Shown here: in pieces, positions 1 through 46,763 of the stretch
Layout of the letters: every line of letters begins with the position of its first letter
How positions within the stretch are numbered: the first letter of the stretch is position 1
Sequence record: OL362041.1
Length of the DNA: 64,000 nucleotides
Strand: one strand, 5' to 3'
From: Escherichia phage vB_Eco_OMNI12
Program-made: the position numbers and the translations under genes
The notes under the pieces: model-generated
Seen by the model: only the letters and a program-made list of their open reading frames with translations
Told to the model about the DNA's origin: nothing
Database searches by the model: none

Positions 1-401
1 ATATACAAAATTCGCGAAAGCGATAAACCTCTGAACTTGCTTCCTTTATTACCAATAAAACTGCGCACAGAATCAGTAAATAAACGAAAACGTATATCAT
101 CATTAGAATAACGCGAAAATTCCTTTTTAATATTATCTGCGGAAATTTTAGCGTAAGCTGAAGTATTAGAAAGAACAATAACTGTTCCGCCATCATACAA
201 CCAATTAGCAGCAAAGTTAGTCACAGCAATTGATTTACCAGATTGACGCCCACCATCTAGTCGAAGTGTACAATACTGTTTAAGTAAGTCTTCAAATGGC
301 GGGATATATTCGTTTTTACAAATTTCTTCTACTCTAGCATCAGAATGGTGTGTAAAAGCATTCATCAGGGATAGATAAGGACCAGTTAAAAATGTTCTCA
401 T
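1..401 (-). CDS. P-loop NTPase-like hypothetical protein, N-terminal part only (gene runs past window start)
   Basis: Minus-strand ORF starting at ATG ~399-401 (MRTFLTGPYLSL...), Walker A-like GGRQSGKS; absent from ORF track because truncated by window edge. Confidence 0.4.
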   Translation of the reverse strand, partial: MRTFLTGPYLSLMNAFTHHSDARVEEICKNEYIPPFEDLLKQYCTLRLDGGRQSGKSIAVTNFAANWLYDGGTVIVLSNTSAYAKISADNIKKEFSRYSNDDIRFRLFTDSVRSFIGNKGSKFRGLSLSRILY

Positions 402-546
402 TTTGTTCTCTCTAGGTTTGGGCCATTCCATGGCGCATGAATTGTCCATTTCTGTATTTACCCATTACCGCACTTGGGCTCGACCTTATTACAGGTTGGC
501 GGGAATCCCTCACAGAATCATGAGGTCCAGGTTATTCCCATGTTAT

Positions 547-963
547 TTAAATGTAAATATTTTTGCCGTAATACTTATACCAGTGTGGCTTCATTAAAAT
601 TTTTTCATCGAGTCGTTGTTGACTCAACTTAATAGCTGATTTGCATGGATTATAATCATTTTTTCATTCTACTGGAATATCGCTGATGTCAGGAACTTCA
701 GTATCTTTTATACTGAACCCGCGTTTTAAGCATTCCGTTATAATGTCCGATTGACGCTTTCGCAAAAATTCTAACTTATCGTAAAAGAAAGTAACATGAC
801 CAGAACCTAAAATAAATTTAGAAGATATTTTAAAATCTTTAACGCGCTTACCGTTTGCCACATGCTTACGAACTATACCAAAAACACGCGGCAATTCACG
901 GTATTCTGCGATTAAATGTTGATCAGCAAGTTCAGATACTAAAGTCAAATTAATACGAGTCAT
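547..963 (-). pseudogene. denV: Endonuclease V (pyrimidine dimer DNA glycosylase) with in-frame TGA at codon 100; 138 codons total
   Basis: ORF track 99 aa [17 protein letters not shown]... matches T4 EndoV N-terminus; same frame continues after TGA (664-666) as KNDYNPCKSAIKLSQQRLDEKILMKPHWYKYYGKNIYI to TAA at 547-549, matching the EndoV C-terminus. Confidence 0.7.
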
Positions 964-1022
964 TTTATCCCTCCAAGTAACTGTGAATATACTATCACAA
1001 TTCTAGGAGAAAGTAAACAACT

Positions 1023-1553
<531 letters not shown>

Positions 1554-2009
1554 TTAAAAGAGGTTGTTCATTATTCGGTAAAGTGAAGGACCCATCACAT
1601 ATTGCCACTGAGTACGAGGAATAAGAGCAAAAGCATCCATCTCTGGAATCATAACGCCATCTTTATTTTCAAAATAAGACTCACAATAGCAATTTCTGAA
1701 CATCTCATGCTCTACTGGAATCGTATAATAAAATAACTGTAAGTCTTTATTACTAGAATATTTAAATACACCTAGGTCTTCTAGAAGGTCTGGATTATAA
1801 TTGCTAAAACCAGTCTCTTCTAAGCATTCTCTTCGTGCTGCATCTAGTGCGCTTAAATCAGAATTTTCTACGCGGCCCTTTGGAATATCCCAACGATGTG
1901 CCATCATTCCAGGCTTACGAGAACCAGTAACCCGACCCATAAATAAATCTTTATCTTCTGTCATAAAGATAATACCAGCTGATAATGTTTTCATTTTAAT
2001 TTCCTGCAT
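1554..2009 (-). CDS. nudE: Nudix hydrolase
   Basis: Nudix box GRVENSDLSALDAARRECLEETGF; likely true start at the internal Met MKTLSAG (ATG ending 1994) preceded by AGGAAA. Confidence 0.85.
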   Translation of the reverse strand: MQEIKMKTLSAGIIFMTEDKDLFMGRVTGSRKPGMMAHRWDIPKGRVENSDLSALDAARRECLEETGFSNYNPDLLEDLGVFKYSSNKDLQLFYYTIPVEHEMFRNCYCESYFENKDGVMIPEMDAFALIPRTQWQYVMGPSLYRIMNNLF

Positions 2010-2479
2010 TCAGTGATAAAGTTATTTAAATTTTGAGCATATTTCTTTTCATCAAAAATCTTTTGTTGTCTGCGTAACCGCCATGGCATTTCAATGAACA
2101 CACACCATATTCCGGATAATATTGCTGCAGTAAAAATATTAACAAATATAGTACAAAGAGCCCAATCTCCTATTCTGTCCATTGGATTTTTTCCAAAGAA
2201 GTAAAATACGAATGATGACGCAGGAAGACTAATGATATACCACAGAAGCATATTCTTATCCGTAAACCATTCAGCGTTCGTTAACTTAGCACGACCGTTT
2301 TGAATACATACGAACTTATCATCTGTTACAGTAAATGGCTTAGCTGCTTGATATCCCATTCTAAACTCCCTAATTAATCGTTTCTTTGTATCTTCAGAAC
2401 AGCCGCTCCAGTCAACTCTATCAACTGAAATGCCATCGTCCCCATCATCTAAATCATACCAGCGAGTTTTTAAAATCAT
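1991..2479 (-). CDS. Small membrane protein (e.x-region accessory gene), paralog family member 1
   Basis: 162 aa, hydrophobic segments; ATGA start/stop overlap with neighbours. Confidence 0.6.
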   Translation of the reverse strand: MILKTRWYDLDDGDDGISVDRVDWSGCSEDTKKRLIREFRMGYQAAKPFTVTDDKFVCIQNGRAKLTNAEWFTDKNMLLWYIISLPASSFVFYFFGKNPMDRIGDWALCTIFVNIFTAAILSGIWCVFIEMPWRLRRQQKIFDEKKYAQNLNNFITECRKLK

Positions 2480-2838
2480 TTAATTTTCCTACAATCACTC
2501 ACAAACTCTTCCATTGATTCTTTTTCAATATAAGACATGTAGTTATTATATTCTTTTAATTGTATTTTGTAATCCTTTTTTCTTTGCCAATTTATTTTAA
2601 AATTATCATAATGAAAATATAACATGGTACCAAAGAATGAAAATAATGAAATCGCTATAGTATAACAAAGCTCACTCCAAACTTCTGTTATATTTACTGT
2701 GCCGTCGATGTTTAAAATAAGACAGTCAATCATTAATCCAATAAGACTACCTGCAAGAGCTGCAAATGCTGATATGGCAAGAATTAATAGTGCCTCTGGA
2801 AACGAATATTTGACTTTATTTAGTTTTGGCTTTTGCAT
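2476..2838 (-). CDS. Small membrane protein, paralog family member 2
   Basis: 120 aa, two predicted TM helices, charged C-terminal tail. Confidence 0.6.
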   Translation of the reverse strand: MQKPKLNKVKYSFPEALLILAISAFAALAGSLIGLMIDCLILNIDGTVNITEVWSELCYTIAISLFSFFGTMLYFHYDNFKINWQRKKDYKIQLKEYNNYMSYIEKESMEEFVSDCRKIK

Positions 2839-3233
2839 CGTGATTCCTTAACAAATTTCATAATTTCATTAAATTCATACGCAGCAAGTTTAAGCTGATG
2901 TTCCTTTTTAATCTTTTTACACTGAGCTTTCCATTCGCGTACGCGTTTACGATAATGTCTTCCTTGATACCAGTATCCTACCCAATTTACAGGTACTAAT
3001 AAAAATGGAACTACTAATGGAAGAATTAATACTAACAGAAATACTGCGTCTGATTCAATATCAGTAGTAACATCTATAACTATTCCAATAATCATTAGGA
3101 TTATAAATGATACAGCTGTCACAGGACCTACTAATACATCAGTAGGAATTAGCTGGCGCTTTAATTCATACTTCAACGGTTTACTTGGAAGGTATAGTGA
3201 TGGTTTTGACATATTCTCTACATTCCTTAACAA
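2820..3233 (-). CDS. Small membrane protein, paralog family member 3
   Basis: 137 aa, two predicted TM helices, basic C-terminal tail. Confidence 0.6.
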   Translation of the reverse strand: MLRNVENMSKPSLYLPSKPLKYELKRQLIPTDVLVGPVTAVSFIILMIIGIVIDVTTDIESDAVFLLVLILPLVVPFLLVPVNWVGYWYQGRHYRKRVREWKAQCKKIKKEHQLKLAAYEFNEIMKFVKESRCKSQN

Positions 3234-3795
3234 ATTTTTCTAGTAATAAATCGCTTTCAAAATTGGGATTTTCTACGAATTTATCAAAAAGATCATCAAC
3301 AATAGTTAAGATATTCTTTTTACTAAGAATACGTTTATTTTCATGCTTCGTTTCAGAATCAACTATAAGAGTAAAGAAATATTTCTTGCCCTGAAATTTT
3401 ACAGTAGTATCAATATAAAATAAATTTGACTTTTGTAAATTACGTTTAAACCATGCGTCACTTAAACTATAAACACCGAGATAATCAAAATCGTCGTTTA
3501 AATAACAAACCGTCCATTCAGGAGAAATGAAATCAGTAAATTCAACATCAAAATCACACGTCAATGAATGAATTGATTCAATACTGTTAATGAGTATTCC
3601 AGGACGTATTAAAGACTTTTTACCTCTAGAAAATCTTCCGGAAAGGCTTTCATCAGTTTCATATGAAGACCCCCAATAGTAATTACGTCCTTCTGCCATG
3701 CGTTTAAGAGCATTTAGTAATTGGTCTGGAACATCAACCTGTCTTTGGAACTCTTCAAACATTGAATTGAAATCACTTTGCATTTTCATTTTCAT
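3181..3795 (-). CDS. Hypothetical protein
   Basis: 204 aa ORF; start among MKMKM ATGs preceded by GGAG. Confidence 0.6.
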   Translation of the reverse strand: MKMKMQSDFNSMFEEFQRQVDVPDQLLNALKRMAEGRNYYWGSSYETDESLSGRFSRGKKSLIRPGILINSIESIHSLTCDFDVEFTDFISPEWTVCYLNDDFDYLGVYSLSDAWFKRNLQKSNLFYIDTTVKFQGKKYFFTLIVDSETKHENKRILSKKNILTIVDDLFDKFVENPNFESDLLLEKFVKECREYVKTITIPSK

Positions 3796-3811
3796 TCCTA
3801 TTTACTCCAGT

Positions 3812-3833
3812 ATAAGGGGCCGAAGCCCCTTAT
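3812..3833 (-). terminator. Intergenic GC-rich stem-loop (GGGGC-UUCG-GCCCC); terminator or RNA-stability hairpin
   Basis: ataaggggccgaagccccttat immediately after stop of 3836..4429. Confidence 0.45.
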
Positions 3834-3835
3834 CA

Positions 3836-4429
3836 TTATTTCAGAGAATTAATGTATTCCTGAACATCGGCAGAGGTAGTTTCAACCCCAGAAATATTAC
3901 CGTTAAAGGTTTCAACTCGAGCAAGGGTATCTTCAATATCAACCTTAGTCAGTGCTGCAATTTCAACTACATCATCAGCAGTACTAATTCCAAGGGCATT
4001 TGCTGCACGAGTTTCACGGATATATTCCAATTTAACCGCAAGTTCTTGACGAGCATCATCTAACTCAACTACTTTCTTGGCGATTTCAATTCGCATTTCA
4101 GCATAACCGTCAGCCTTAGTAGTCAACTGCTCAGCTGTTCGACGATATAGTAAACCGAGTTTAGCATGCATTGTTACATCTTGGCCTTCGGAAAGAAGTT
4201 TACGAATTTCACGCTCTTTTGATTCGGCCTGTCGATTCTTTTCGATAACAAGTTCACGAATACGTTTTTCTTCGTTAATAGATTTAACAGAAGCAGTTTT
4301 TAGATCTTTAATTTTATCAAGTAGTTTTGCTGCTGCAGCAGTATACTGTTCTTCGACAGATAGATTTTTAGCCATAGCAGAACCAAGTTTAGTGCGAATA
4401 AACTCAACAATTTTCTTCAGTGTGTTCAT
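3836..4429 (-). CDS. Coiled-coil hypothetical protein
   Basis: 197 aa, heptad-rich charged sequence; RBS AAGGAAA upstream of ATG. Confidence 0.6.
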
Positions 4430-4489
4430 AGTATTTCCTTAGGTTAATTGAGATTTAAAATCCGTAGGAGTATAATACTCTATCGTCAA

Positions 4490-4530
4490 ATTATAGGCTC
4501 ATAATATCTCAATCATGAGCCTGCGTAAAC
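4490..4530 (-). promoter_or_regulatory. Early-type promoter candidate (-35 GTTTAC, -10 TATTAT/TATAAT) with internal inverted repeat
   Basis: Minus strand GTTTACGCAGGCTCATGATTGAGATATTATGAGCCTATAAT; inverted repeat AGGCTCAT/ATGAGCCT between the elements. Confidence 0.4.
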
Positions 4531-4794
4531 TTATTTCATATTATTGAAATATTCTTCTGCGATTTCGTCGTTATCATGGTAAACTTTAGAAGACAGTTTA
4601 ACATAACCTTCTGCTGTGAACATATTAATCACAACTTTTACAGTATACCACTGACCGTCTTCATTACCCATTACTGCGTAAGTTTCAAACATCGGATGAT
4701 CAGGACCGATAACTTTAATATCATTCACTGTACGACCGAAATCTTCTGAAACGCATTTCATAAAGAAGTTGAACAGTTCGCCGTAATTATCCAT
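4531..4794 (-). CDS. Hypothetical small protein (start moved to internal Met)
   Basis: ORF track 4531..4914; a promoter-like element lies inside the 5' extension and GGAG RBS precedes MDNYGELFNFF. Confidence 0.5.
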   Translation of the reverse strand: MDNYGELFNFFMKCVSEDFGRTVNDIKVIGPDHPMFETYAVMGNEDGQWYTVKVVINMFTAEGYVKLSSKVYHDNDEIAEEYFNNMK

Positions 4795-4837
4795 TTCATT
4801 CTCCAAGTTGTTTTCTGTATCAGTAGTTGATAGTTGT

Positions 4838-4880
4838 ATAGTACCATGGAAGAACAGAGATGTAAACAGTTTTGTGAAAA
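4838..4880 (-). promoter_or_regulatory. Early-type promoter candidate (-35 GTTTAC, 18-nt spacer, -10 TACTAT, upstream TTTCACAAAA)
   Basis: Minus strand TTTTTCACAAAACTGTTTACATCTCTGTTCTTCCATGGTACTATAC; same architecture as the repeats at 9.4-10.1 kb. Confidence 0.45.
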
Positions 4881-5023
4881 AATTTTTAGGGAATTCTAGG
4901 GCAGGGATGGGCAATTAAAGGATAGGATAATATATTATAAAGGGTATAAACTAAATGATGCCTAGAGAGGTCCAGAAAGGCCTAGATACCAAAAAGCCCT
5001 ATCATTTAGATAGGGATTTAAAA

Positions 5024-5587
5024 TTATTTACCTAGTTTACTTATTATAGCTTCTGCAGCAGCTTTTAGCTTAGATGCAGTGTTAATACGATTTTTAATTT
5101 CAGTATACGCATCGCCAAGAACATCAAGGCTATCAGAATAAACACTTACACTATTGCGTTCGCTATTTGAAATAGAACCTTTAGTTTTGCGGTCAAAATC
5201 GGTGTACACGTCTTGAAGATCGCGGGCTGCCTTCTTTGCATCATCCAATGCATCAAGAGCTTTATTCAAAGCATTAACGTATTTTTTAGTGTCGAACATA
5301 TTCTTAGAAATTTTAACAGGTGCGCGTTCAGGAGTAGCTAACACAGATTTAGGAACCTGAGCGCCAGATGCCAATTTCTTAGAAATTTTGAAAAATGCTT
5401 TATTGAATTTATTTTCTTGACTCATTGTAAAAGAACTATTATCGATGTTGTACATTTCAATAGCTTTAGCTTTCCACTTAAGAAAATCGCCGCGGTCTTT
5501 TGGGTCCAATTGGAAGAATACTTTAGTAAGATCTGCTTCAGATGGTAATTTTGCTGCTTCGGTTAAAAATTCGGCATAGGTTTTCAT
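5024..5587 (-). CDS. Internal-protein-like capsid-packaged protein (N-terminal CTS-like MKTYAEFLTE)
   Basis: 187 aa; N-terminus fits T4 internal-protein capsid targeting consensus; RBS AAGGA upstream. Confidence 0.6.
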   Translation of the reverse strand: MKTYAEFLTEAAKLPSEADLTKVFFQLDPKDRGDFLKWKAKAIEMYNIDNSSFTMSQENKFNKAFFKISKKLASGAQVPKSVLATPERAPVKISKNMFDTKKYVNALNKALDALDDAKKAARDLQDVYTDFDRKTKGSISNSERNSVSVYSDSLDVLGDAYTEIKNRINTASKLKAAAEAIISKLGK

Positions 5588-5675
5588 TTAAAATCCTTGA
5601 AATAATTTATCGGTTGGTTATTAATTATTTATTACTTTGTTACTATCCGTAACAGCGTTATCCGAGTGATTCAAA

Positions 5676-5704
5676 CTAAAAAGCCCCAACCTTTCGGTCG
5701 GGGC
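5676..5704 (-). terminator. Intrinsic terminator (GCCCCGACC-GAAA-GGUUGGGGC followed by UUUUU)
   Basis: Sequence aaaaagccccaacctttcggtcggggctaag; identical copy at 6235-6261. Confidence 0.7.
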
Positions 5705-5712
5705 TAAGAATG

Positions 5713-6186
5713 TCATTTGATTTGTTTAGCAGACCAAATGCGGTCTTTAATAATTTTTTGGATGTCTTCAACATACTCAAGAGAGTGAACATGTGGATTA
5801 TCTTTGAAACTATAAGCACGGGCTAACTTTTGGCCTTCGGTTTTGATTACTAAAAGCTCTTTAAGGATAGCTTCATATTTAGCGATAATTCCTTTAACGA
5901 TATTTTTTTCTTGTGCCGCTTTAGGATCTGCTTTAGGAGCAGGTTTACCCGAAGCCTTTGCAAAAGCAGCGCCAGTAGCAACTAAACTTTTCCAGGCCAT
6001 ACTAACTGCATTTCCCGTAAATCCTTCCGCTTTCATGTCGCGTGCAAACTGGAATCGCGATTCATCAGAAGCATCTTTATAGGAATATTTACCCGCGGCA
6101 ATGGCAGCTTTTGCAACAGCTTGAATTTCGGTGCTAGATGCTTCATTTAACACCGCTTCATTTAAAAATTGAGTATATGATTTCAT
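5713..6186 (-). CDS. Internal-protein-like capsid-packaged protein (N-terminal CTS-like MKSYTQFLNE)
   Basis: ORF track 5713..6363 runs through the terminator and tRNA-like region; true start taken at internal ATG with RBS AGGAAA. Confidence 0.6.
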   Translation of the reverse strand: MKSYTQFLNEAVLNEASSTEIQAVAKAAIAAGKYSYKDASDESRFQFARDMKAEGFTGNAVSMAWKSLVATGAAFAKASGKPAPKADPKAAQEKNIVKGIIAKYEAILKELLVIKTEGQKLARAYSFKDNPHVHSLEYVEDIQKIIKDRIWSAKQIK

Positions 6187-6234
6187 CTTATTTCCTGTTT
6201 TAATTTGTAGATTTAATATACTAATATTTATACC

Positions 6235-6261
6235 AAAAAGCCCCAACCTTTCGGTCGGGGC
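6235..6261 (-). terminator. Intrinsic terminator, second identical copy
   Basis: Identical hairpin plus U-run; ends the tRNA/stable-RNA transcription unit. Confidence 0.7.
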
Positions 6262-6265
6262 TAAG

Positions 6266-6578
6266 CCTTGCGGCAACCTTGTCGGGGTTCCACCTGCTAA
6301 GACAAGTGTTTGTACGAAACGCCGGGATTCGAACCCGGTTATTAAGTAGTTGACGCTACTCAATATTTTTAAAAGGCCATATCTCGACCATATCCGAACG
6401 TTCCGTCAAAAACGCTACTCGGCTTACGGCAAAGATATTTCCTCGAATCGATAATTCGGTGCGCCGTTTCTGCTGTGGTGTAAGAGGGCATCAACAAATC
6501 ATAAAGATTTATTAACGCAATTCCTTACCCAGGGAACATCAGTCCGACGACTTACCGGTAGCGACCCGGTTTCTTGTC
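6266..6578 (-). ncRNA. Candidate small stable RNA region (position of T4 species 1 / species 2 RNAs), includes tRNA-like element ~6314-6405
   Basis: Non-coding stretch between tRNA-Arg and terminator; T-arm-like CCGGGTTCGAATCCCGG with pairing acceptor-like ends CGGAACG / CGTTTCG. Confidence 0.4.
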
Positions 6579-6655
<77 letters not shown>

Positions 6656-6658
6656 TAA

Positions 6659-7324
6659 TTAAAATTTCATTTTTCGACCTTTAAACCATCCTTCTGGAAT
6701 TGGGTCAGTTTTCTTAATACGTTTAGAAACTTTTTCATCTAATGAATGAATCCACATCATACCAAATTGGGAATTCTTTTCACCTTGTTGGTGTTTATTT
6801 TTGGCGTGAGATTCTTTCATTTTATTAATAGTTTCAAGAGTATGGGTCTTACCCAAGAAAGATTTAATATTTAAAAATTTCTCTCTATACTTAGGATTAT
6901 CCCAAAGCTGTTTAAACCTTTCTGAACCCATTTTACGATATTTTTCTTTAAGGTCTGGGTCGTTCTCAAATCTGGTTTTAAAAGCAGCAGCCCCTTTTAA
7001 GGAAGCTTCTTTCTTTTTATCCAAATATTCTTTAGTGTTTAAATGGTCCCAACCACCTTCACCACCTAATTTCAAATTATAAACATCAGGGCGCTTTAAA
7101 AACTCTTCAGTCACAATATTCTTTTCTGACTCAAACATAGAGGTTTTATCGTCAAAGAACTCTAATATTTCTTTAGAGAAATTTTCTATACCATACTTGT
7201 CTTGGGCTCTTTTTAATAATTTACCAGAACCCATATATCCATCATCTAAATTTTCGGTAGAATGAGCGCCTATATAGATTTTATTATTAATTTTATTTGT
7301 TATTTTATAAGTGTAATGGAACAT
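6659..7324 (-). CDS. segB: GIY-YIG homing endonuclease (SegB-like) inside the tRNA cluster
   Basis: 221 aa; N-terminal YKITNKINNKIYIGAH...GYMGSG GIY-YIG motif; same position as T4 segB. Confidence 0.8.
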   Translation of the reverse strand: MFHYTYKITNKINNKIYIGAHSTENLDDGYMGSGKLLKRAQDKYGIENFSKEILEFFDDKTSMFESEKNIVTEEFLKRPDVYNLKLGGEGGWDHLNTKEYLDKKKEASLKGAAAFKTRFENDPDLKEKYRKMGSERFKQLWDNPKYREKFLNIKSFLGKTHTLETINKMKESHAKNKHQQGEKNSQFGMMWIHSLDEKVSKRIKKTDPIPEGWFKGRKMKF

Positions 7325-7365
7325 AAATATCTCCTATTTCTAAGAGTATTTATGTTCCCAAAATA

Positions 7366-7437
7366 TGGCCCTGGGTGGAATTGAACCACCATCTGGCGAT
7401 TATGAGTCGCTTGCTTGAACCTTCCAGCTACAGGGCC
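7366..7437 (-). tRNA. tRNA-Ile (anticodon CAU, presumably lysidine-modified)
   Basis: Acceptor GGCCCUG, anticodon loop CUCAUAA, T-loop GGUUCAAUUCC. Confidence 0.8.
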
Positions 7438-7443
7438 TTGATA

Positions 7444-7516
7444 TGCTGATTGACGGAATCGAACCGCCGACATCCTCATTACAAGTGAGGTGCTCTACCT
7501 ACTGAGCTAAATCAGC
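7444..7516 (-). tRNA. tRNA-Thr (anticodon UGU)
   Basis: Anticodon arm CCUCA-CUUGUAA-UGAGG, T-loop UUCGAUU. Confidence 0.85.
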
Positions 7517-7523
7517 GAAATTA

Positions 7524-7610
7524 CGGAGGCGATAGGATTTGAACCTATGAGTCACCGGAGCGACTGCCGGTTTTCAAGACCGGTGCATTAAACCACTCTG
7601 CCACGCCTCC
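7524..7610 (-). tRNA. tRNA-Ser (anticodon UGA), long variable arm
   Basis: 87 nt; acceptor GGAGGCG, anticodon loop CUUGAAA. Confidence 0.85.
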
Positions 7611-7612
7611 AG

Positions 7613-7686
7613 TCTCCGCGGCAGGATTTGAACCTGCGACATTCTGCTCCCAAAGCAGACGCTCTACCAAACTGAGCTACACGGAG
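7613..7686 (-). tRNA. tRNA-Pro (anticodon UGG)
   Basis: Anticodon arm UCUGC-UUUGGGA-GCAGA, T-loop GGUUCAAAUCC. Confidence 0.85.
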
Positions 7687-7698
7687 TAAATTAAATTT

Positions 7699-7770
<72 letters not shown>

Positions 7771-7776
7771 AAACTT

Positions 7777-7863
7777 TGGTACGAGAAGTGGGACTCGAAC
7801 CCACAAGGAAATCATTCCGCAGCATTTTAAGTGCTGTGCCTTTACCAATTTGACCATTCTCGC
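7777..7863 (-). tRNA. tRNA-Leu (anticodon UAA), CCA encoded
   Basis: 87 nt, long variable arm; anticodon arm CAGCA-CUUAAAA-UGCUG. Confidence 0.85.
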
Positions 7864-7864
7864 G

Positions 7865-7937
7865 CTGGGAATAAAGGACTCGAACCTTTGCATCTAGCAG
7901 TCAAAGTGCTATGCCTTACCAACTTGGCTAATTCCCA
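7865..7937 (-). tRNA. tRNA-Gln (anticodon UUG)
   Basis: Acceptor UGGGAAU, anticodon loop CUUUGAC; directly abuts tRNA-Leu. Confidence 0.85.
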
Positions 7938-8006
7938 ATTATTAACAAAGGCTCTCAGGAAAGAACCCTTGATGATAGAGGGTATTAATCAGTGCGATAT
8001 GAGTTA

Positions 8007-8031
8007 ATAATAACACATAATTCTTAAAGCA
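8007..8031 (-). promoter_or_regulatory. Candidate middle promoter (MotA-box-like TGCTTTA, 12 nt, -10 TATTAT) upstream of the tRNA cluster
   Basis: Minus strand ATTTGCTTTAAGAATTATGTGTTATTAT ~70 nt upstream of tRNA-Gln. Confidence 0.3.
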
Positions 8032-8539
8032 AATCAATCATTTTAACGGTTGGCAAAACAATTTCTTTTTCAATATAAGCAAATTCGACACGTTCAACTA
8101 CACGCAAGAAATCGTAATCATAGTATTCAGAAGCATAGCCAAGAATATCAATAAGTCCTTGAGATATCTCATCGCCTTTCACAAAGAACAGGTCGAATAC
8201 GCGGGCTTCGTCTTCTTCAGATTTATCACCAAGGTCTACTTCGATACCAAAGACCTTTTTAATAAATTCCGGTTGGAGTTGGTCTGAGAACAGTCCTTCA
8301 ACCAGATATTCGTAGATAATAAGCGAGCAACGACCGAATGGTGTATTACCGCAATAACGTTCGGCTTTGGTGCTAGAATGACGGCTCTTAAATTTCTTCA
8401 AGAGATATTTAAACTGTTGGAGCTCATGCTCTTCCACTTCAAACAATGTTTTGGTTTTATAGTTGTCACCATCACTTTCATAGGTAGTGACATCAATTAC
8501 GTAGCCCTTAGGAATTGTACTGCCTAAACGAATATTCAT
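8024..8539 (-). CDS. Hypothetical protein
   Basis: 171 aa ORF, first of a co-oriented translationally coupled set. Confidence 0.6.
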   Translation of the reverse strand: MNIRLGSTIPKGYVIDVTTYESDGDNYKTKTLFEVEEHELQQFKYLLKKFKSRHSSTKAERYCGNTPFGRCSLIIYEYLVEGLFSDQLQPEFIKKVFGIEVDLGDKSEEDEARVFDLFFVKGDEISQGLIDILGYASEYYDYDFLRVVERVEFAYIEKEIVLPTVKMIDLL

Positions 8540-8543
8540 TTAA

Positions 8544-8834
8544 TCACCATACCATATTAATGTAAGTATACTCAATACATTCAAGATTTAAAGGATTCTT
8601 GAAAATATCATATTCAAGAGGGCCTTTTTCTGTTTCAATAAAGAAATCAAAGTTAACTGTGTTAAATTTACGGTCTTCCTTCACTAATTTAACTTGAGAA
8701 GATGAACGGTCAATGTAAACCTTTTCAACTTCAAAACATGTTAAAATGCCATAATCATCAATCAAAGCTTTAGCCGCGTCTTGATCATATTTATATCCAT
8801 TTTCAATGGATGATACTTTCGCATAAAGAATCAT
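8544..8834 (-). CDS. Hypothetical protein
   Basis: 96 aa ORF. Confidence 0.55.
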   Translation of the reverse strand: MILYAKVSSIENGYKYDQDAAKALIDDYGILTCFEVEKVYIDRSSSQVKLVKEDRKFNTVNFDFFIETEKGPLEYDIFKNPLNLECIEYTYINMVW

Positions 8835-8836
8835 TA

Positions 8837-9235
8837 TCAGCCTTCATCAACAATAGTGTGAGTATTAGCATTTACGATTTGCCACCAATCAAAGCGATTA
8901 GAATCCATCGGTTTGTTTTCATTTTCTTTGATAATGTCACGGAGTTCATCTTCAGAGAATGCTTTAGCGATTAAATCGGTATACCCACCACGTGGATAAT
9001 AATTATCACCTGCAAACAAAAGGAAATTTACCTTCCCGGAAGGAACATACGCTTCCTTAGGATACTTGTTTCCTGCGTGGTCAACCACTTCAATATAACG
9101 GTAAGGAATATCGGTTCTTTCAACCCATTGCCATGCCGCCGCAGGGGAATCGAAAGCATCTACACCTAAACGATTATCTTCATCTTTAGACGGATTATTT
9201 TCGTAATCCGCATATACATAATATTCAACGTTCAT
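8837..9235 (-). CDS. Hypothetical protein
   Basis: 132 aa ORF. Confidence 0.55.
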   Translation of the reverse strand: MNVEYYVYADYENNPSKDEDNRLGVDAFDSPAAAWQWVERTDIPYRYIEVVDHAGNKYPKEAYVPSGKVNFLLFAGDNYYPRGGYTDLIAKAFSEDELRDIIKENENKPMDSNRFDWWQIVNANTHTIVDEG

Positions 9236-11579: not shown

Positions 11580-12110
11580 TTAAACTTCCGCTATAATTTT
11601 TCCATCTTTTTCTACTTGAAAATACGTATAAGGAATCGTTGCTGTACATACTAAAGCCGGGTCTGAATCTTCTGTGTAGCTAAATTCTACTTCAGACAGG
11701 TCAGAAACCCAAGGCTTATAAAAATTTATTGACATCACGATTTCAGTTTTGCTATTATCTAAAATGTAAAGCGTAATGTATTCAGGACCTGTTTTTTGGG
11801 CAGTATTTTCACCTGTAAGATAGTTGCTAGTTCCTAGCATCCATTCATACATTCCTATCCATGACTTAAGTTCTTCATCAACTATAAATCTCACGATGAG
11901 TGGATCGTACTCAAATGTAGCACCTGGACGTTGTGCTCGGCCCAGTCCAAACGGCCCAGTCACGGTATCAGTAACAGGTATTCTAATTCCTGGAATAGGA
12001 ACTGACTGAGCATTTAAAGTAAAAGCAGATGTAGTATTACTATGTGGTATTGATACTACAAAGTTAGTTGTATTTGCTTGGTTAAAAATTTGTTGCAGTG
12101 CTTGCGACAT
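11580..12110 (-). CDS. 3: Tail completion / sheath stabilizer gp3
   Basis: ORF track 11580..12191; start placed at MSQALQQIFNQ (176 aa) with GAGGAA RBS. Confidence 0.85.
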   Translation of the reverse strand: MSQALQQIFNQANTTNFVVSIPHSNTTSAFTLNAQSVPIPGIRIPVTDTVTGPFGLGRAQRPGATFEYDPLIVRFIVDEELKSWIGMYEWMLGTSNYLTGENTAQKTGPEYITLYILDNSKTEIVMSINFYKPWVSDLSEVEFSYTEDSDPALVCTATIPYTYFQVEKDGKIIAEV

Positions 12111-12216
12111 ATATTCCTCATAATGCTTTATAACTGTTGGTGGTATAATGGGTCTAAGTCCCTTCCATTCAATTCCAATTAGAACAAACAATAGAAAAGA
12201 ATGGAAGATAATAGAA

Positions 12217-13041
12217 TTAAATATTTGACCAGACTTTGTTTGCAGAGAAACGTTTTCCTTTTGAAACGAACTGCTGAAGTGGCATTAACACAACGTTCGC
12301 CCAGTCTTTCGGGGCGATTTCAACAAGGCTACCCATAATATTACCAGGTATATATGCCTTAATCATTTGGTCTGCACCCCTAAATCCTTTCACTTGACTC
12401 CAATCAATTTTTAATTTCGTTTTATTAGTAATAGTAGGTGTATTTGAATATTGCTTTAAAAGCTCTTCTAGGAATTGCTGGCGAGCTTTAGGTGGAATAT
12501 AGTGCAAGTTCAATCCGTACATTAAATTATGCTTACCTAAACCAAGGTAAATTATCAAAGGAAATTTATCCCAGTAAGGAAGAGTTTCCTTGTGTTTAGC
12601 ATCATAAGCAAAAGCATATATTCGTCCCGGCTGCGGGCGAACAACTTTATGTCCTTTTACTTGCTTAATAGTTTCAGCAAACCACTTTCTGGTTTTATTA
12701 TTAATTGCTGCGCCTTCATTACGAATTTTATCACGTAATGTTTGCCTGAATGAATTTATCATAAGCAGTTGTCTTTCTTGCTTATTGAGTTTATTCATTG
12801 GTTTTGATTCAAGCTTTTGAATCTTTTCAGCCGTTTTAATTCCTGAAGCATATTTTGACATTGCTGAAGTAAACGTAGAGTATTTGATTCCTCTTTCTTC
12901 AGCAAATTGCTTTCCGGTCATTCCTTTTGCTTTGGCCTTTTTATATTCAAGACCTATCTGAATCCATTTCTTTTCGTTTAATGATTGCTTAACCTTTGGA
13001 ACTTGGGGAGTGCTTTCATTAATTATTTGAAAAATAGCCAT
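12217..13041 (-). CDS. 2: DNA end protector protein gp2
   Basis: 274 aa ORF in conserved 1-3-2-4 order. Confidence 0.85.
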
Positions 13042-34099: not shown

Positions 34100-36079
34100 A
34101 TGACTTTATTATCTCCGGGCATTGAGCTCAAAGAAACTACGGTTCAAAGCACCGTGGTTAATAACTCTACTGGTACAGCAGCTTTGGCCGGTAAATTCCA
34201 GTGGGGTCCTGCTTTTCAGATTAAACAGGTTACAAACGAAGTAGATTTAGTTAATACTTTTGGTCAACCTACAGCTGAAACTGCTGACTATTTTATGTCT
34301 GCAATGAATTTCTTACAATATGGAAATGATTTGCGAGTTGTGCGCGCTGTCGATAGAGATACCGCTAAAAACTCATCTCCGATTGCTGGTAATATTGAAT
34401 ACACAATTTCTACCCCAGGTAGTAACTACGCGGTTGGAGATAAAATCACGGTCAAATATGTTTCAGAAGATGTTGAAACAGAAGGTAAAATTACCGAAGT
34501 AGATGCTGATGGAAAAATTAAGAAAATTAATATTCCTACTGCAAAAATTATTGCTAAAGCTAAAGAAGTTGGCGAATACCCAACATTAGGTTCTAACTGG
34601 ACCGCGGAAATTTCTTCATCTTCTTCCGGTTTAGCTGCAGTAATAACTCTTGGAAAAATTATTACTGATTCTGGTATTTTATTAGCTGAAATTGAAAATG
34701 CTGAAGCTGCTATGACAGCGGTTGACTTTCAAGCAAATCTCGAAAAATACGGAATTCCAGGAGTAGTAGCTCTTTATCCAGGCGAATTAGGCGATAAAAT
34801 TGAAATTGAAATCGTATCTAAAGCTGACTATGCAAAAGGAGCTTCTGCATTACTCCCAATTTATCCAGGTGGCGGAACACGTGCATCTACTGCCAAAGCA
34901 GTGTTTGGATATGGACCACAAACTGATTCACAATACGCTATTATAGTTCGTCGCAATGATGCTATTGTTCAAAGTATTGTTCTTTCAACAAAGCGTGGTG
35001 AAAAAGATATTTACGATAGTAACATCTACATTGATGACTTTTTCACAAAAGGCGGTTCAGAATATATTTTCGCAACTGCACAAAACTGGCCAGAAGGATT
35101 CTCTGGAATTTTAACTCTGTCTGGTGGATTATCATCAAATGCTGAAGTAACAGCAGGAGATTTAATGGAAGCCTGGGACTTCTTTGCTGACCGTGAATCT
35201 GTTGACGTTCAGTTGTTTATTGCGGGTTCTTGTGCCGGTGAATCTTTAGAAACAGCATCTACTGTCCAAAAACACGTCGTTTCAATTGGGGATGCTCGCC
35301 AGGATTGCTTAGTATTATGCTCACCACCGCGCGAAACTGTAGTTGGAATTCCTGTAACTCGCGCTGTTGATAACTTAGTCAATTGGAGAACCGCAACAGG
35401 TTCATACACTGATAATAACTTTAATATCAGTTCAACCTATGCAGCAATTGATGGTAACTACAAATATCAGTATGACAAATATAATGATGTCAATCGCTGG
35501 GTTCCATTAGCAGCTGATATTGCCGGTTTATGTGCAAGAACCGATAACGTTTCTCAGACTTGGATGTCTCCAGCTGGTTATAATCGCGGCCAGATTCTTA
35601 ACGTTATTAAACTTGCTATTGAAACTCGCCAAGCTCAGCGCGACCGTTTATACCAAGAAGCTATCAACCCAGTAACTGGTACAGGTGGTGATGGTTACGT
35701 ATTATATGGTGATAAAACAGCTACTTCTGTTCCTTCTCCATTTGATCGTATTAACGTTCGTCGTCTGTTTAATATGTTGAAAACGAATATCGGACGTAGT
35801 TCAAAATATCGTTTGTTCGAATTAAACAACGCGTTTACTCGTTCATCATTCCGCACAGAAACTGCCCAATACTTACAGGGAATTAAAGCTCTCGGTGGAA
35901 TTTATGAATATCGTGTAGTTTGCGATACAACAAATAACACTCCGTCAGTAATTGATAGAAATGAGTTTGTTGCAACATTCTACATCCAACCTGCACGCAG
36001 TATAAATTATATCCAACTTAACTTCGTTGCGACTGCTACTGGTGCAGATTTCGATGAGTTGACTGGTCTTGCAGGTTAA
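34100..36079 (+). CDS. 18: Tail sheath protein gp18
   Basis: 659 aa. Confidence 0.95.
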   Translation: MTLLSPGIELKETTVQSTVVNNSTGTAALAGKFQWGPAFQIKQVTNEVDLVNTFGQPTAETADYFMSAMNFLQYGNDLRVVRAVDRDTAKNSSPIAGNIEYTISTPGSNYAVGDKITVKYVSEDVETEGKITEVDADGKIKKINIPTAKIIAKAKEVGEYPTLGSNWTAEISSSSSGLAAVITLGKIITDSGILLAEIENAEAAMTAVDFQANLEKYGIPGVVALYPGELGDKIEIEIVSKADYAKGASALLPIYPGGGTRASTAKAVFGYGPQTDSQYAIIVRRNDAIVQSIVLSTKRGEKDIYDSNIYIDDFFTKGGSEYIFATAQNWPEGFSGILTLSGGLSSNAEVTAGDLMEAWDFFADRESVDVQLFIAGSCAGESLETASTVQKHVVSIGDARQDCLVLCSPPRETVVGIPVTRAVDNLVNWRTATGSYTDNNFNISSTYAAIDGNYKYQYDKYNDVNRWVPLAADIAGLCARTDNVSQTWMSPAGYNRGQILNVIKLAIETRQAQRDRLYQEAINPVTGTGGDGYVLYGDKTATSVPSPFDRINVRRLFNMLKTNIGRSSKYRLFELNNAFTRSSFRTETAQYLQGIKALGGIYEYRVVCDTTNNTPSVIDRNEFVATFYIQPARSINYIQLNFVATATGADFDELTGLAG

Positions 36080-36095
36080 TACGGTGCATTCTAAA

Positions 36096-36113
36096 GGCCT
36101 GTTTCGGCAGGCC
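36096..36113 (+). terminator. Stem-loop GGCCTG-TTTCGG-CAGGCC after gene 18
   Basis: GC-rich hairpin; no clear T-run. Confidence 0.4.
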
Positions 36114-36114
36114 A

Positions 36115-36181
36115 TATAAATACACTATATCCTTAATTCTTTAATTCTATATGCCCTAGGTTAAACATAGGGATATAAATA
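36115..36181 (+). promoter_or_regulatory. Two late promoter motifs TATAAATA (36115-36122 and 36174-36181) upstream of gene 19
   Basis: Exact motifs in the 18-19 intergenic region. Confidence 0.5.
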
Positions 36182-36195
36182 CTACAGAGGCTAAT

Positions 36196-36687
36196 ATGTT
36201 TGTAGATGATGTAACACGAGCGTTTGAATCTGGTGATTTTGCTCGACCTAACTTATTCCAAGTAGAAATTTCTTATCTTGGACAAAATTTTACATTCCAA
36301 TGTAAAGCCACTGCTTTACCAGCTGGTATTGTAGAAAAAATTCCAGTCGGATTTATGAACCGTAAAATTAACGTAGCAGGCGATCGTACATTCGATGACT
36401 GGACTGTTACAGTAATGAACGATGAAGCTCATGATGCTCGCCAGAAGTTTGTTGATTGGCAAAGCATTGCTGCTGGTCAAGGAAACGAAATTACTGGTGG
36501 AAAACCTGCAGAGTATAAAAAGAGCGCTATTGTTCGTCAATATGCTCGTGATGCTAAAACAGTAACAAAAGAAATTGAAATTAAAGGTCTGTGGCCTACT
36601 AACGTGGGTGAACTTCAATTAGATTGGGATTCAAACAATGAAATCCAAACCTTTGAAGTAACTCTTGCTCTCGATTATTGGGAATAA
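36196..36687 (+). CDS. 19: Tail tube protein gp19
   Basis: 163 aa. Confidence 0.95.
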   Translation: MFVDDVTRAFESGDFARPNLFQVEISYLGQNFTFQCKATALPAGIVEKIPVGFMNRKINVAGDRTFDDWTVTVMNDEAHDARQKFVDWQSIAAGQGNEITGGKPAEYKKSAIVRQYARDAKTVTKEIEIKGLWPTNVGELQLDWDSNNEIQTFEVTLALDYWE

Positions 36688-45056: not shown

Positions 45057-46763
45057 TTATGGATAGGTATAGATGATACCAGTTTCTAAAGCAGTTTTAT
45101 GAATGATGTATCCATTGCGTGATTCTTGAACATCAACTTCTGGATAGTCTTTAATCATCTTCTGAAGAGTGTAACGATGCAGGTAGTATTTACTATCTGG
45201 GTCGTCAGTTTTCCAATCTTTACCTTCTTCGGTCATTTTTTGGATTTCATCCATAACCCACCAACCGCACCAGATATAAGCTGAAGTACGATGTGGAAGA
45301 GGATGAACATAAGGCAATTCACCTTCTGGTTCTGGAGCAACTTTATCAGTTACCTGAACTTGACCTTCTGCTGTAATAGTTTTGCTATCGTAATCAGTTG
45401 CAGTAACGACAGCAGTAACTTCAATAGTTTGACTTCCAACAGATGAGGTATCGACAGTATATACGTTAGTTGACCCTTCTACAGGAGAAGAATCTTTCTT
45501 CCATGAGTAAGTAATTTGTGCTTCTTCTGGAGCACCCGTAACATTAGCCGTAAATGTAGCCGAAGCATCTTGCTGAACGTTAATAGAAGGAGGAGTCAAT
45601 GTAACCTGTGGATTCATTGTTTTCTTATTAACAGTCAATGATACTTCATTAGAAGTAACTTCCTTTTCATTGTAATTTTCTGCAGTTACTTGCGCTACAC
45701 ACTTAACTGTTTTAGCTCCAACTGTGGTAGGAGTATAGTTAAATGTAGTAGTAGTTTCTCCATCGACCAGAGAACCGTCAACATACCACTGATACGTAGC
45801 AGACGCTCCTGGTGGCTGTGAATCCAAGGCAGCAGTAAATTGAACTGGGGTTCCAATTACTCCGGCAGCAGGATTAGCAGGAGTTACGGCTAACGTAGTT
45901 GTCTGTGTCTTCTTATTAACTGTTAATGATACTTCATTAGAAGTAACGCTTAGTGCATCATAATCTGTTGCTGTTACTTGCGCTACGCATTTAATTCTTT
46001 TTACTCCACTTGTAGTTGGAGTATAGCTAAATGTAGCAGAAGTCGCTTCACCAATTTGAGAATCATCTACATACCACTGATACGTAGCAGATGCCCCATC
46101 AGGTTGAGAAGCTAAGGCAGCAGTAAATTCAACGGCTGTTCCAATCACTCCAGCTGGAGGACTATCAGGAGTTACTGCCAAGGTAGTCGTCTGCGTCTTT
46201 TTATTAACAGTCAATGATACTTCATTAGAAGTAACGCTTAGTGCATCATAATCTGCCGCAGTTACTTGAGCTACACACTTGATTTTTTTAACTCCGCTTG
46301 TGTCAGGAGTGTAATTGAATGTAGCGTCAGTTGCTTCGTCTACAGGAGAACCGTCAACGTGCCATTGATACGTAGCGTTTGCACCTGATGGCTGTGAAGC
46401 TAAGGCAGCGGTAAATTCAATTGGAGTTCCAATCACTCCAGCATCAGGGCTACCAGGAGTTACTGCCAAAGTAGTTGTTTGTGTCTTATTTTGAACTGTG
46501 ATAGTTGTACTAATTTCAGCTGTTTCAGGTTCAGATTCTGCAACTTGATTGGTTGCAACTACTTTAATAGTCTTTTGACCGGCAGGTCCTTTTAGTACAT
46601 AACTAAAAGTTGCTGACGTTTCTTCCTGTGGAGCGTCGTCTACAGTCCAAGCATATGTAATAGGTCCATCTCCAGTTTGACCACTGGGTGTAGCAGTAAA
46701 CTGCTTAGTTTCATCAATAACCCCTGTCGGTGTTTTAGGAGTTATATCAACTGTAAAAGTCAT
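45057..46763 (-). CDS. hoc: Head outer capsid protein Hoc, expanded form with five Ig-like domains plus capsid-binding domain
   Basis: 568 aa; T4 Hoc-like N-terminus and C-terminal ELPYVHPLPHR...GWWVMDEIQKMTEEGKDW; three tandem 96-aa repeats. Confidence 0.9.
   Translation of the reverse strand: MTFTVDITPKTPTGVIDETKQFTATPSGQTGDGPITYAWTVDDAPQEETSATFSYVLKGPAGQKTIKVVATNQVAESEPETAEISTTITVQNKTQTTTLAVTPGSPDAGVIGTPIEFTAALASQPSGANATYQWHVDGSPVDEATDATFNYTPDTSGVKKIKCVAQVTAADYDALSVTSNEVSLTVNKKTQTTTLAVTPDSPPAGVIGTAVEFTAALASQPDGASATYQWYVDDSQIGEATSATFSYTPTTSGVKRIKCVAQVTATDYDALSVTSNEVSLTVNKKTQTTTLAVTPANPAAGVIGTPVQFTAALDSQPPGASATYQWYVDGSLVDGETTTTFNYTPTTVGAKTVKCVAQVTAENYNEKEVTSNEVSLTVNKKTMNPQVTLTPPSINVQQDASATFTANVTGAPEEAQITYSWKKDSSPVEGSTNVYTVDTSSVGSQTIEVTAVVTATDYDSKTITAEGQVQVTDKVAPEPEGELPYVHPLPHRTSAYIWCGWWVMDEIQKMTEEGKDWKTDDPDSKYYLHRYTLQKMIKDYPEVDVQESRNGYIIHKTALETGIIYTYP
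45627..46490. repeat. Three tandem direct repeats of ~288 bp inside hoc, each encoding one Ig-like domain
   Basis: Repeat units ~46490-46203, 46202-45915, 45914-45627; recurring ttattaacagtcaatgatacttcattagaagtaac. Confidence 0.8.

What the first reader, a model, noticed from the sequence alone, without database searches (positions are those of the whole stretch)
547..963. denV interrupted by an in-frame opal codon at position 100
The reading frame is 138 codons, the length of T4 endonuclease V, and aligns with it end to end, but codon 100 is TGA (plus-strand tca at 664-666, context TGA-A). Translation would stop at ...DISDIPVE, removing the C-terminal ~38 residues (including the WYKYYGK segment). 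The downstream codons stay in frame and conserved, so the change is recent, or a sequencing error, or tolerated by low-level readthrough. T-even phages T2 and T6 are classically more UV-sensitive than T4 and lack v-gene function, so a naturally inactivated denV would fit that biology.
Basis: partly seen in the sequence, partly recalled or inferred. Interest (0 to 1): 0.55.

Follow-up and report, generated by a model that had tools for sequence, protein, structure and literature searches.

The report
Recent nonsense mutation in phage denV
A T4-like coliphage carries a single-base change that turns tryptophan codon 100 of its UV-repair gene (denV, endonuclease V) into a stop codon; this is a real, very recent, strain-private knockout of a dispensable accessory gene, which is ordinary biology.

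Summary
On the minus strand, 963..547 encodes a 138-codon homologue of T4 endonuclease V (78% identity, residues 1-137, E 3e-69), and codon 100 is TGA (plus strand 664-666).

About 55 deposited Tequatrovirus genomes have a denV ORF identical at all 417 bases except this one, where they read TGG (Trp). The change is therefore one G>A transition (C>T on the plus strand), with no later decay.

It is not a sequencing slip. Contigs assembled independently from at least two SRA runs (SRR16571691, SRR16571700) are 100% identical to the window and carry the same TGA. denV is also the only one of about 72 shared genes in the 64-kb window with an internal stop.

It is not recoding. TGA terminates 12 of 65 conserved genes here, no UCA-anticodon tRNA is present, and every relative has TGG.

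The stop removes helix 3 (108-124), invariant S114/R117/E120/K121/P126/Y129 and the WYKYY segment, so the 99-aa product should be inactive. Basal UGA readthrough by Trp-tRNA (about 2-4% in E. coli K-12) would rebuild the ancestral protein, so the allele may be leaky.

The T2/T6 analogy holds only loosely: those phages lack the gene at this locus.

The parts
547..963 (-). denV (endonuclease V / pyrimidine-dimer DNA glycosylase) reading frame, 138 codons plus TAA, interrupted at codon 100
   Evidence: The ORF is 99.8% identical to about 55 intact phage denV ORFs.
664..963 (-). The ORF actually open: codons 1-99 plus the premature TGA. It encodes the N-terminal fragment containing Thr2, Arg3, Glu23, Arg26 and helices 1 and 2.
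   Evidence: 99-aa ORF; conserved residues; helices 14-36 and 64-80. This product was called in Logan assemblies of SRR16571691 and SRR16571700.
664..666 (-). Premature opal codon TGA at codon 100. The mutated base is window position 664 (plus strand T, ancestral C; coding strand A, ancestral G of TGG-Trp). It is followed by A, giving a UGA-A context.
   Evidence: No exact match to the TGA-containing 51-mer in 50,697 phage records, while 244 records differ from it by a single mismatch and every relative whose sequence was read at this codon has TGG. The TGA 35-mer is absent from IMG/VR, JGI metagenome contigs and GTDB genome contigs.
659..664 (-). The A-run on the coding strand, lengthened from A5 to A6 by the mutation. 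In an unrelated metagenome scaffold (L023) the same run carries a +1 A frameshift.
547..663 (-). The now untranslated tail: codons 101-138 and the natural TAA (547-549). It still encodes helix 3 (108-124), invariant S114, R117, E120, K121, P126 and Y129, and W128-Y132 (WYKYY).
   Evidence: It is base-for-base identical to intact relatives.
969..974 (-). Shine-Dalgarno sequence GGAGGG, 5 nt upstream of the denV ATG (963-961). The translation start signals are intact, so the 99-aa fragment should be made.
   Evidence: Read directly, and identical in relatives. Function is inferred.

Best explanation
This is a genuine, very recent loss-of-function allele of denV in a Tequatrovirus (T4-like coliphage), which can be written denV W100opal.

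One G>A transition at the third base of Trp codon 100 (C>T on the window's plus strand, at a TpC following a T5 run) created UGA. Ribosomes start normally at the intact RBS and ATG and terminate after Glu99. That yields a 99-residue fragment with the catalytic N-terminus (Thr2, Glu23) but without the third of the three core helices, the DNA-contacting Arg117 and Lys121, and the aromatic WYKYY C-terminus. The fragment is expected to be misfolded or inactive, so the phage should behave as a natural v-minus (UV-sensitive) strain.

UGA followed by A is misread at the percent level by E. coli Trp-tRNA, and Trp is the ancestral residue. A small fraction of fully wild-type EndoV may therefore still be made, in a host-dependent way.

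denV is an accessory gene that is often absent or decayed in this genus, so the mutation is most simply neutral or nearly neutral drift in a low-UV niche or in laboratory propagation.

Shown: the base change, its uniqueness, its reproducibility, the intact state of the rest of the genome, and the conservation of the lost region. Inferred: inactivity of the fragment, the UV phenotype, and the extent of readthrough.
For: - Single-base difference: the 417-nt ORF is identical to Pinarejo, HP3 and PM136 except TGG>TGA. 81 phage records are >=99% identical and none is 100%. 244 records differ from the TGA-centred 51-mer at a single position, and no record matches it exactly.
- Reproducibility: Logan contigs from SRR16571691 (the identical contig occurs in 2 samples) and SRR16571700 are 100.000% identical to the window over 3,963, 4,827 and 1,810 bp and carry TGA. 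The best deposited phage is only 96-97.6% identical over those stretches.
- Record quality: of 81 Pinarejo proteins, about 72 have full-length collinear matches in the window, and denV alone has an internal stop. There are no frameshift splits.
- No recoding: TGA ends 12 of 65 conserved genes, and there are 224 TGG codons. The 8 tRNAs include no UCA anticodon, and tRNA-Arg is UCU.
- Importance of the lost part: family members are 135-147 aa. Invariant S114, R117, E120, K121, P126 and Y129, and near-invariant P106 and W128, lie after the stop. The AF2 model (pLDDT 90.6) places helix 108-124 in the lost part.
- Dispensability: the gene is absent at this locus from T6, T2 and PP01, replaced by ipIII in ON506924, frameshifted in L023, and reduced to scraps in W143, AV113, SF and TU01.
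- Readthrough: about 2% (37 C) to 4% (25 C) basal UGA readthrough in wild-type E. coli K-12, set by Trp-tRNA-Trp competing with RF2 (PMC10570021).
Against: - No experimental data exist: neither the UV phenotype nor the protein product has been seen.
- The SRA runs carrying TGA belong to one accession series and may be the very data from which the window's genome was assembled. They exclude a random consensus error, but not a systematic platform error next to the homopolymer.
- Two further runs with this strain (SRR16571696, SRR16571697) give contigs that stop 18-36 nt short of the site, so they do not confirm the base. They could hint at a mixed population.
- The requirement for the C-terminus rests on conservation, a predicted model and remembered mutagenesis and crystallography literature that I could not retrieve.
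Confidence: 0.85

Rival explanations
1. Sequencing or assembly artefact: the true base is G (TGG), and the A is a miscall next to an A5 homopolymer.
For: The change lies directly beside a homopolymer run, and an unrelated metagenome scaffold shows an indel in the same run. The TGA allele is absent from 50,697 phage records, IMG/VR, JGI metagenomes and GTDB genomes. All supporting runs come from one SRA series.
Against: The same base appears in contigs assembled separately from at least two runs (three samples), each 100% identical to the window. It is a substitution, not the indel typical of homopolymer errors. The other ~72 shared genes in the 64 kb have no stop or frameshift.
Confidence: 0.05
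2. Leaky opal. The mutation is real, but natural UGA-A readthrough by Trp-tRNA restores enough wild-type EndoV for a near-normal or only partly reduced v+ phenotype, so the gene is attenuated rather than dead. This overlaps the best explanation and differs only in the predicted phenotype.
For: The ancestral residue is Trp, so readthrough recreates the exact wild-type protein. Basal UGA readthrough is 2-4% in E. coli K-12 and is driven by Trp-tRNA. The tail is still intact. From memory, a 3' A is one of the leakier UGA contexts in E. coli.
Against: 2-4% was measured on a reporter in K-12, whose RF2 is weak; natural hosts with efficient RF2 should read through less. No downstream structure or conserved context suggests enhancement. 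Whether a few percent of EndoV is enough for phage UV repair is unknown.
Confidence: 0.3
3. Programmed recoding: UGA is decoded as a sense codon by design, through code reassignment, a phage suppressor tRNA or selenocysteine.
For: None beyond the in-frame position.
Against: Every relative examined has TGG. TGA is the genuine stop of 12 of 65 conserved genes, including gp6, gp7 and DNA ligase. There is no tRNA with a UCA anticodon, and only tRNA families are found by Rfam in window 1-9000.
Confidence: 0.01
4. The 99-aa N-terminal fragment is itself functional, for example as a DNA-binding or dominant-negative protein, and the truncation is adaptive.
For: The fragment keeps the Pfam-defined core (PF03013 matches residues 1-86) and the catalytic Thr2 and Glu23.
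Against: No C-terminally truncated form recurs among 1,394 homologues; the short entries are N-terminal gene-call truncations. The allele is private to one strain. The lost part holds 6 of 25 invariant columns and one of three core helices.
Confidence: 0.03

Closest known systems
T4 endonuclease V (denV product; PDB 2END/1VAS; Pfam PF03013 Pyr_excise)
   Same: Same gene family and length, with 78% identity over residues 1-137. The N-terminal catalytic residues are the same, and the model shows the same three-helix architecture.
   Different: Here codon 100 is a stop, so the translated product is 99 aa. T4 has Phe100 where this allele's ancestor has Trp. In T4, ipII and ipIII lie between denV and e (from memory); here denV directly follows e.
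Intact denV of close Tequatrovirus relatives (e.g. Escherichia phages Pinarejo PP925831 and HP3 NC_041919)
   Same: 416 of 417 ORF bases are identical, with the same flanks, RBS and gene order e-denV-vs.8.
   Different: They read TGG at codon 100 and are annotated as full-length 138-aa endonuclease V.
Laboratory T4 v (denV) nonsense mutants
   Same: Same kind of lesion: a point nonsense mutation in denV, expected to give UV sensitivity (from memory of the classical genetics; not retrieved here).
   Different: This allele arose outside any documented mutagenesis, in a non-T4 strain, and is an opal at a Trp codon, so it is intrinsically prone to wild-type-restoring readthrough.
Natural v-minus state of T2 and T6
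   Same: T-even phages without functional EndoV, showing that denV is dispensable.
   Different: T2, T6 and PP01 have no denV sequence at the syntenic locus. That is gene absence or replacement, not a point-inactivated gene.
Qbeta coat/A1 readthrough and other UGA-to-Trp leaky termination in E. coli
   Same: The same decoding event (UGA read by Trp-tRNA at the percent level) could act here.
   Different: There the stop is conserved and the extension is functional by design. Here the stop is a private mutation with no conservation.

Membership tests
Pyrimidine-dimer DNA glycosylase / T4 endonuclease V (PF03013) | Significant profile match above Pfam's gathering score | tested here: met
   PF03013 at 52.1 bits against a cut-off of 23, for both the 99-aa fragment and the 138-aa conceptual product. 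E 3e-69 to PDB 2END.
Pyrimidine-dimer DNA glycosylase / T4 endonuclease V (PF03013) | N-terminal catalytic residues (Thr2 alpha-amino nucleophile, Arg3, Glu23, Arg26) | tested here: met
   MTRIN..., E23 and R26 are present and are invariant or near-invariant across 28 homologues. Their catalytic roles are taken from established knowledge of T4 EndoV (memory).
Pyrimidine-dimer DNA glycosylase / T4 endonuclease V (PF03013) | A complete single-domain product of about 135-147 aa, including helix 3 (R117, K121) and the C-terminal aromatic WYKYY segment | tested here: not met
   These residues are encoded but lie after the in-frame TGA at codon 100. Invariant S114, R117, E120, K121, P126 and Y129 and helix 108-124 are therefore lost from the product. 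The locus is a member by descent, a fresh pseudogene, and not a complete gene.
Pyrimidine-dimer DNA glycosylase / T4 endonuclease V (PF03013) | CPD-specific glycosylase/AP-lyase activity; v+ UV-resistance phenotype | not testable with these tools
   Needs an enzyme assay or UV survival curves.
Programmed stop-codon readthrough / recoded gene | The stop codon is conserved at the same position in orthologues | tested here: not met
   0 of 50,697 phage records have the TGA 51-mer, and 244 records differ from it by one mismatch. All 14 other fetched alleles have TGG.
Programmed stop-codon readthrough / recoded gene | A dedicated decoding apparatus (suppressor tRNA with a UCA anticodon, SECIS-like or stimulatory structure), or genome-wide use of TGA as sense | tested here: not met
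   8 tRNAs, none with UCA. Rfam finds only tRNAs in window 1-9000. TGA ends 12 of 65 conserved genes and occurs in-frame only here.
T2/T6-type natural absence of the v gene | No denV sequence between the vs genes/regB and e | tested here: not met
   The window has the whole gene minus one base. T6, T2 and PP01 have none at that locus. The rest of the T2 and T6 genomes was not scanned.

The most novel reading that the evidence does not exclude
The opal at a Trp codon acts as a host-dependent dimmer rather than a knockout. Because UGA-A is misread as Trp, the phage would make a few percent of perfectly wild-type EndoV. The amount would be set by the host's RF2 allele, temperature and cAMP/tRNA-Trp status, and this low, conditional expression would be tolerated or even favoured in a dark (gut or laboratory) niche. 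A weaker corollary: the A-run after codon 100 is a recurrent mutational hot spot through which denV is switched off in nature, since a +1 A frameshift occurs at the same run in an unrelated metagenome scaffold.
Probability: 0.07. Interest if true: 0.4.

Novelty: new member of a known kind. Interest (0 to 1): 0.15.

Why it matters
The finding matters little on its own. It is one more example of an accessory phage gene being lost, caught at the earliest stage: one base, with no further decay.

Practical value:
- It flags that this strain should be annotated with a denV pseudogene, not a 99-aa 'endonuclease'.
- Together with its TGG siblings (HP3, Pinarejo and others) it offers a natural near-isogenic pair for measuring what EndoV contributes to phage survival in sunlight-exposed versus gut environments.
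- An opal at a Trp codon is a clean natural reporter of UGA readthrough during T-even infection.
- The check corrects a tempting textbook analogy: the sequenced T2 and T6 genomes lack denV at this locus and do not carry an inactivated copy there.

Tried and rejected
- Looked for the TGA allele elsewhere. It is absent from INPHARED phages, IMG/VR, JGI metagenome contigs, GTDB genome contigs, RefSeq E. coli genomes and PLSDB plasmids. It was found only through an exact-protein lookup in Logan assemblies.
- Tried to identify the source record. The Hoc protein is identical in SNOJ01000006.1 (GCA_013182975.1), but the strain-specific e.3 protein and the 99-aa denV product are not on record there. 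That contig is therefore a relative, not the source. The SRA run accessions are not mentioned in the searchable literature.
- Tested for a phage-encoded opal suppressor, since T4 opal suppressors arise from tRNA-Arg. There is none: tRNA-Arg is the wild-type UCU.
- Tested for genetic-code reassignment and rejected it.
- Tested whether the window is T2 or T6. It is not, and they have no denV at this locus. LC348379, which I recalled as T2, is PP01.
- Suspected a ~10-kb discontinuity just downstream of denV from the odd extents. That was wrong: window 1-600 is collinear with relatives.
- Checked the 145-nt intergenic stretch downstream of denV for RNA structure. Fold z-score is 0.44, so there is nothing there, and there are no Rfam hits.
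- The consensus promoter scan found no denV promoter. A T4-early-like GTTTAC...TAGTAT motif at about 1018-989 is visible by eye only and is not claimed.
- Literature searches for the classical T2/T6 v-gene and EndoV C-terminal mutagenesis papers returned nothing usable. Three further attempts were rejected for terms that were too short.
- The first blastn loop failed on file paths. The same test was completed.

Full report
**1. The observation**

The minus strand of window 963..547 reads [17 protein letters not shown]...[46 protein letters not shown].
- The internal stop is TGA at codon 100 (plus-strand 'tca' at 664-666), and it is followed by A.
- The ORF listing accordingly reports a 99-aa ORF (664..963) and a 26-aa tail ORF.
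- The conceptual 138-aa product matches T4 endonuclease V (PDB 2END) over residues 1-137 with E 3e-69, and Pfam PF03013 Pyr_excise above threshold.
- The gene sits immediately downstream of the T4-type lysozyme gene e (1023..1517) and nudE.

The only correction is that T4 has Phe at position 100, whereas the ancestor of this allele had Trp.

**2. What changed**

- A 701-nt stretch around the gene is 99.3% identical to about 37 deposited Tequatrovirus genomes.
- In a four-way alignment, the 417-nt ORF differs from Pinarejo, HP3 and PM136 at one base only: TGG>TGA. The other four differences lie in the 3' end of gene e.
- Across the phage collection, 81 records are >=99% identical to the ORF and none is 100%.
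- For a 51-mer centred on the codon, no record matches exactly and 244 differ from it by one mismatch.
- All 14 other alleles I fetched from phages and metagenomes read TGG.
- The event is therefore a single G>A transition, C>T on the plus strand, at a TpC after a T5 run (TTTTTCC>TTTTTTC). That context fits UV-type, deamination or dislocation mutagenesis equally well.
- The tail has accumulated no further change, so the event is very recent.

**3. Real mutation or artefact?**

Three lines of evidence argue for a real mutation.
- *Independent assemblies.* The exact 99-aa product is on record in Logan assemblies of SRR16571691 (the identical contig occurs in two samples) and SRR16571700. Those contigs are 100.000% identical to the window over 3,963, 4,827 and 1,810 bp and carry the same TGA, while the best deposited phage is 96-97.6% identical there. 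A strain-specific neighbour (e.3) occurs only in runs SRR16571691, SRR16571696, SRR16571697 and SRR16571700, so this strain was sequenced repeatedly.
- *Clean record.* Of 81 Pinarejo proteins, about 72 have full-length collinear matches in the window. denV is the only one with an in-frame stop, and none is split by a frameshift.
- *Type of change.* It is a substitution, not the indel expected from homopolymer miscalls.

Caveats:
- All the runs belong to one accession series and may be the data from which the window's genome was built.
- The contigs from SRR16571696 and SRR16571697 end 18 and 36 nt before the site, so they are uninformative.

**4. Recoding?**

No.
- TGA is the genuine terminator of 12 of 65 conserved genes in the window (gp6, gp7 and DNA ligase among them).
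- The window has 224 TGG codons against this one in-frame TGA.
- The phage's tRNA cluster is the standard T4 set (Arg-UCU, Met/Ile-CAU, Thr, Ser, Pro, Gly, Leu, Gln) with no UCA anticodon.
- Rfam finds only those tRNAs in window 1-9000.
- The stop is not conserved in any relative.

**5. Consequence for the protein**

- Among 1,394 homologues, lengths cluster at 135-147 aa. The two short entries near the top (115 and 121 aa) are N-terminal gene-call truncations, not C-terminal ones.
- In a 28-sequence alignment, six of the 25 invariant columns (S114, R117, E120, K121, P126, Y129) and near-invariant P106 and W128 lie beyond codon 100. Position 100 itself is Trp, Phe or Leu.
- An AlphaFold2 model of the intact sibling protein (mean pLDDT 90.6) has three main helices, 14-36, 64-80 and 108-124. 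The stop deletes the third helix and the WYKYY C-terminus.
- From established knowledge of T4 EndoV (crystal structures 2END and 1VAS, and site-directed mutagenesis of residues 128-132; recalled, not retrieved), Arg117 and Lys121 contact DNA and the aromatic C-terminus is needed for dimer-specific binding.
- I therefore infer that the 99-aa fragment is inactive, although it keeps Thr2 and Glu23.
- The RBS (GGAGGG) and ATG are intact, so the fragment should be synthesised.

**6. Leakiness**

- UGA is misread by Trp-tRNA in competition with RF2. A reporter in wild-type E. coli K-12 gave about 2% readthrough at 37 C and about 4% at 25 C (PMC10570021).
- Because the ancestral residue is Trp and the tail is intact, any readthrough regenerates exactly wild-type EndoV.
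- The allele may therefore be a strong hypomorph rather than a null, with the level depending on the host. This is an inference. No stimulatory element was found: the downstream intergenic RNA fold has z 0.44.

**7. The T2/T6 analogy**

- In T6 (MH550421), regB directly abuts e.
- In T2 (LC348380, AP018813), ipIV fills the space between vs.7 (plus a vs.8-position ORF) and e. In PP01 (LC348379), ipIV and ip10 lie between vs.8 and e.
- None of these loci gives any tblastn hit (E<=10) or blastn hit to denV.
- Those phages therefore lack the gene at this locus; they do not carry a point-inactivated copy there. I scanned only 17-20 kb around the syntenic position, not the whole genomes.
- More broadly, denV is a variable accessory gene:
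  - It is replaced by ipIII in ON506924.
  - It is frameshifted by +1 A in the very A-run after Trp100 in metagenome scaffold L023.
  - It is reduced to 68-nt or 110-nt scraps in W143, AV113, SF and TU01.
- Loss of denV is thus common, and this window shows its first step.

**8. Verdict**

- The feature is a strain-private, very recent nonsense mutation (W100opal) in an otherwise ordinary T4-like phage.
- It most likely abolishes, or strongly reduces, pyrimidine-dimer glycosylase activity.
- It is a new allele of a well-known kind of event, and the interest is low.
- The only mildly unusual twist is that the opal replaces Trp, so natural readthrough would be self-correcting.

Noticed in passing
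L023:3055-3480 (ENA ERZ28574716, GAIO21-1 scaffold_233): An unrelated T4-like metagenome scaffold has a +1 A in the A5 run immediately after Trp100 of denV. This gives ...AEWKK* and a 102-aa product, so the same few bases are hit in two lineages. It could be a real hot spot or a homopolymer assembly error.
   Followed up: partly
Phage records MZ189262 (W143), OR352943 (AV113), NC_055749 (SF), MZ560701 (TU01), PQ666542 (sb4): Some Tequatrovirus genomes keep only scraps of denV: the last 68 nt, or the first 110 nt. sb4 has a full-length match but no annotated CDS. This indicates recurrent deletion or decay of the gene.
   Followed up: no
L005 (T6 MH550421, 55000-75000); L007/L008 (T2); L006 (PP01): T6 lacks the whole vs.3-vs.8/denV/ip block, and regB abuts e. 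T2 and PP01 carry ipIV (and ip10) in place of denV. The region between regB and e is a gene-turnover hot spot.
   Followed up: partly
L007:8002-8973 (T2 LC348380, record 63001-63972): The T2 record annotates a 'nudE' CDS that spans and overlaps the e lysozyme CDS (63001-63495). This is apparently an annotation slip.
   Followed up: no
window 45057-46763 (-): The Hoc-like head decoration gene is 568 aa with internal ~290-nt repeats at about 79% identity. It is only 54.5% identical to the 471-aa Pinarejo Hoc. It is 100% identical over 3.7 kb to SNOJ01000006.1, a 167,973-bp phage-sized contig inside WGS assembly GCA_013182975.1.
   Followed up: partly
window 6579-7937 (-): The tRNA cluster is the 8-gene T4 set, with a 221-aa SegB-type GIY-YIG homing endonuclease ORF (6659-7324) between tRNA-Arg and tRNA-Met. 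The close relative Pinarejo instead has 11 tRNAs (adding His, Asn and Tyr) and no segB there.
   Followed up: partly
window 682 and 700 (ends of Logan contigs L025 and L026): Contigs from SRR16571696 and SRR16571697 stop 18 and 36 nt short of the mutated base. This could be a coverage gap or a sign of a TGG/TGA mixture in those samples; it was not resolvable here.
   Followed up: no
window ~12110-12220 and ~36076-36196, compared with L009:11318-11977 and L009:35847-36497: Two Pinarejo ORFs have no counterpart in the window: a homing endonuclease between genes 3 and 2, and a 216-aa ORF between the tail sheath and tube genes. This is typical mobile-element presence/absence.
   Followed up: no
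window 57924-59978 and 59985-62036 (-): Two tandem Alt-like ADP-ribosyltransferase genes of 685 and 684 aa, as in Pinarejo.
   Followed up: no
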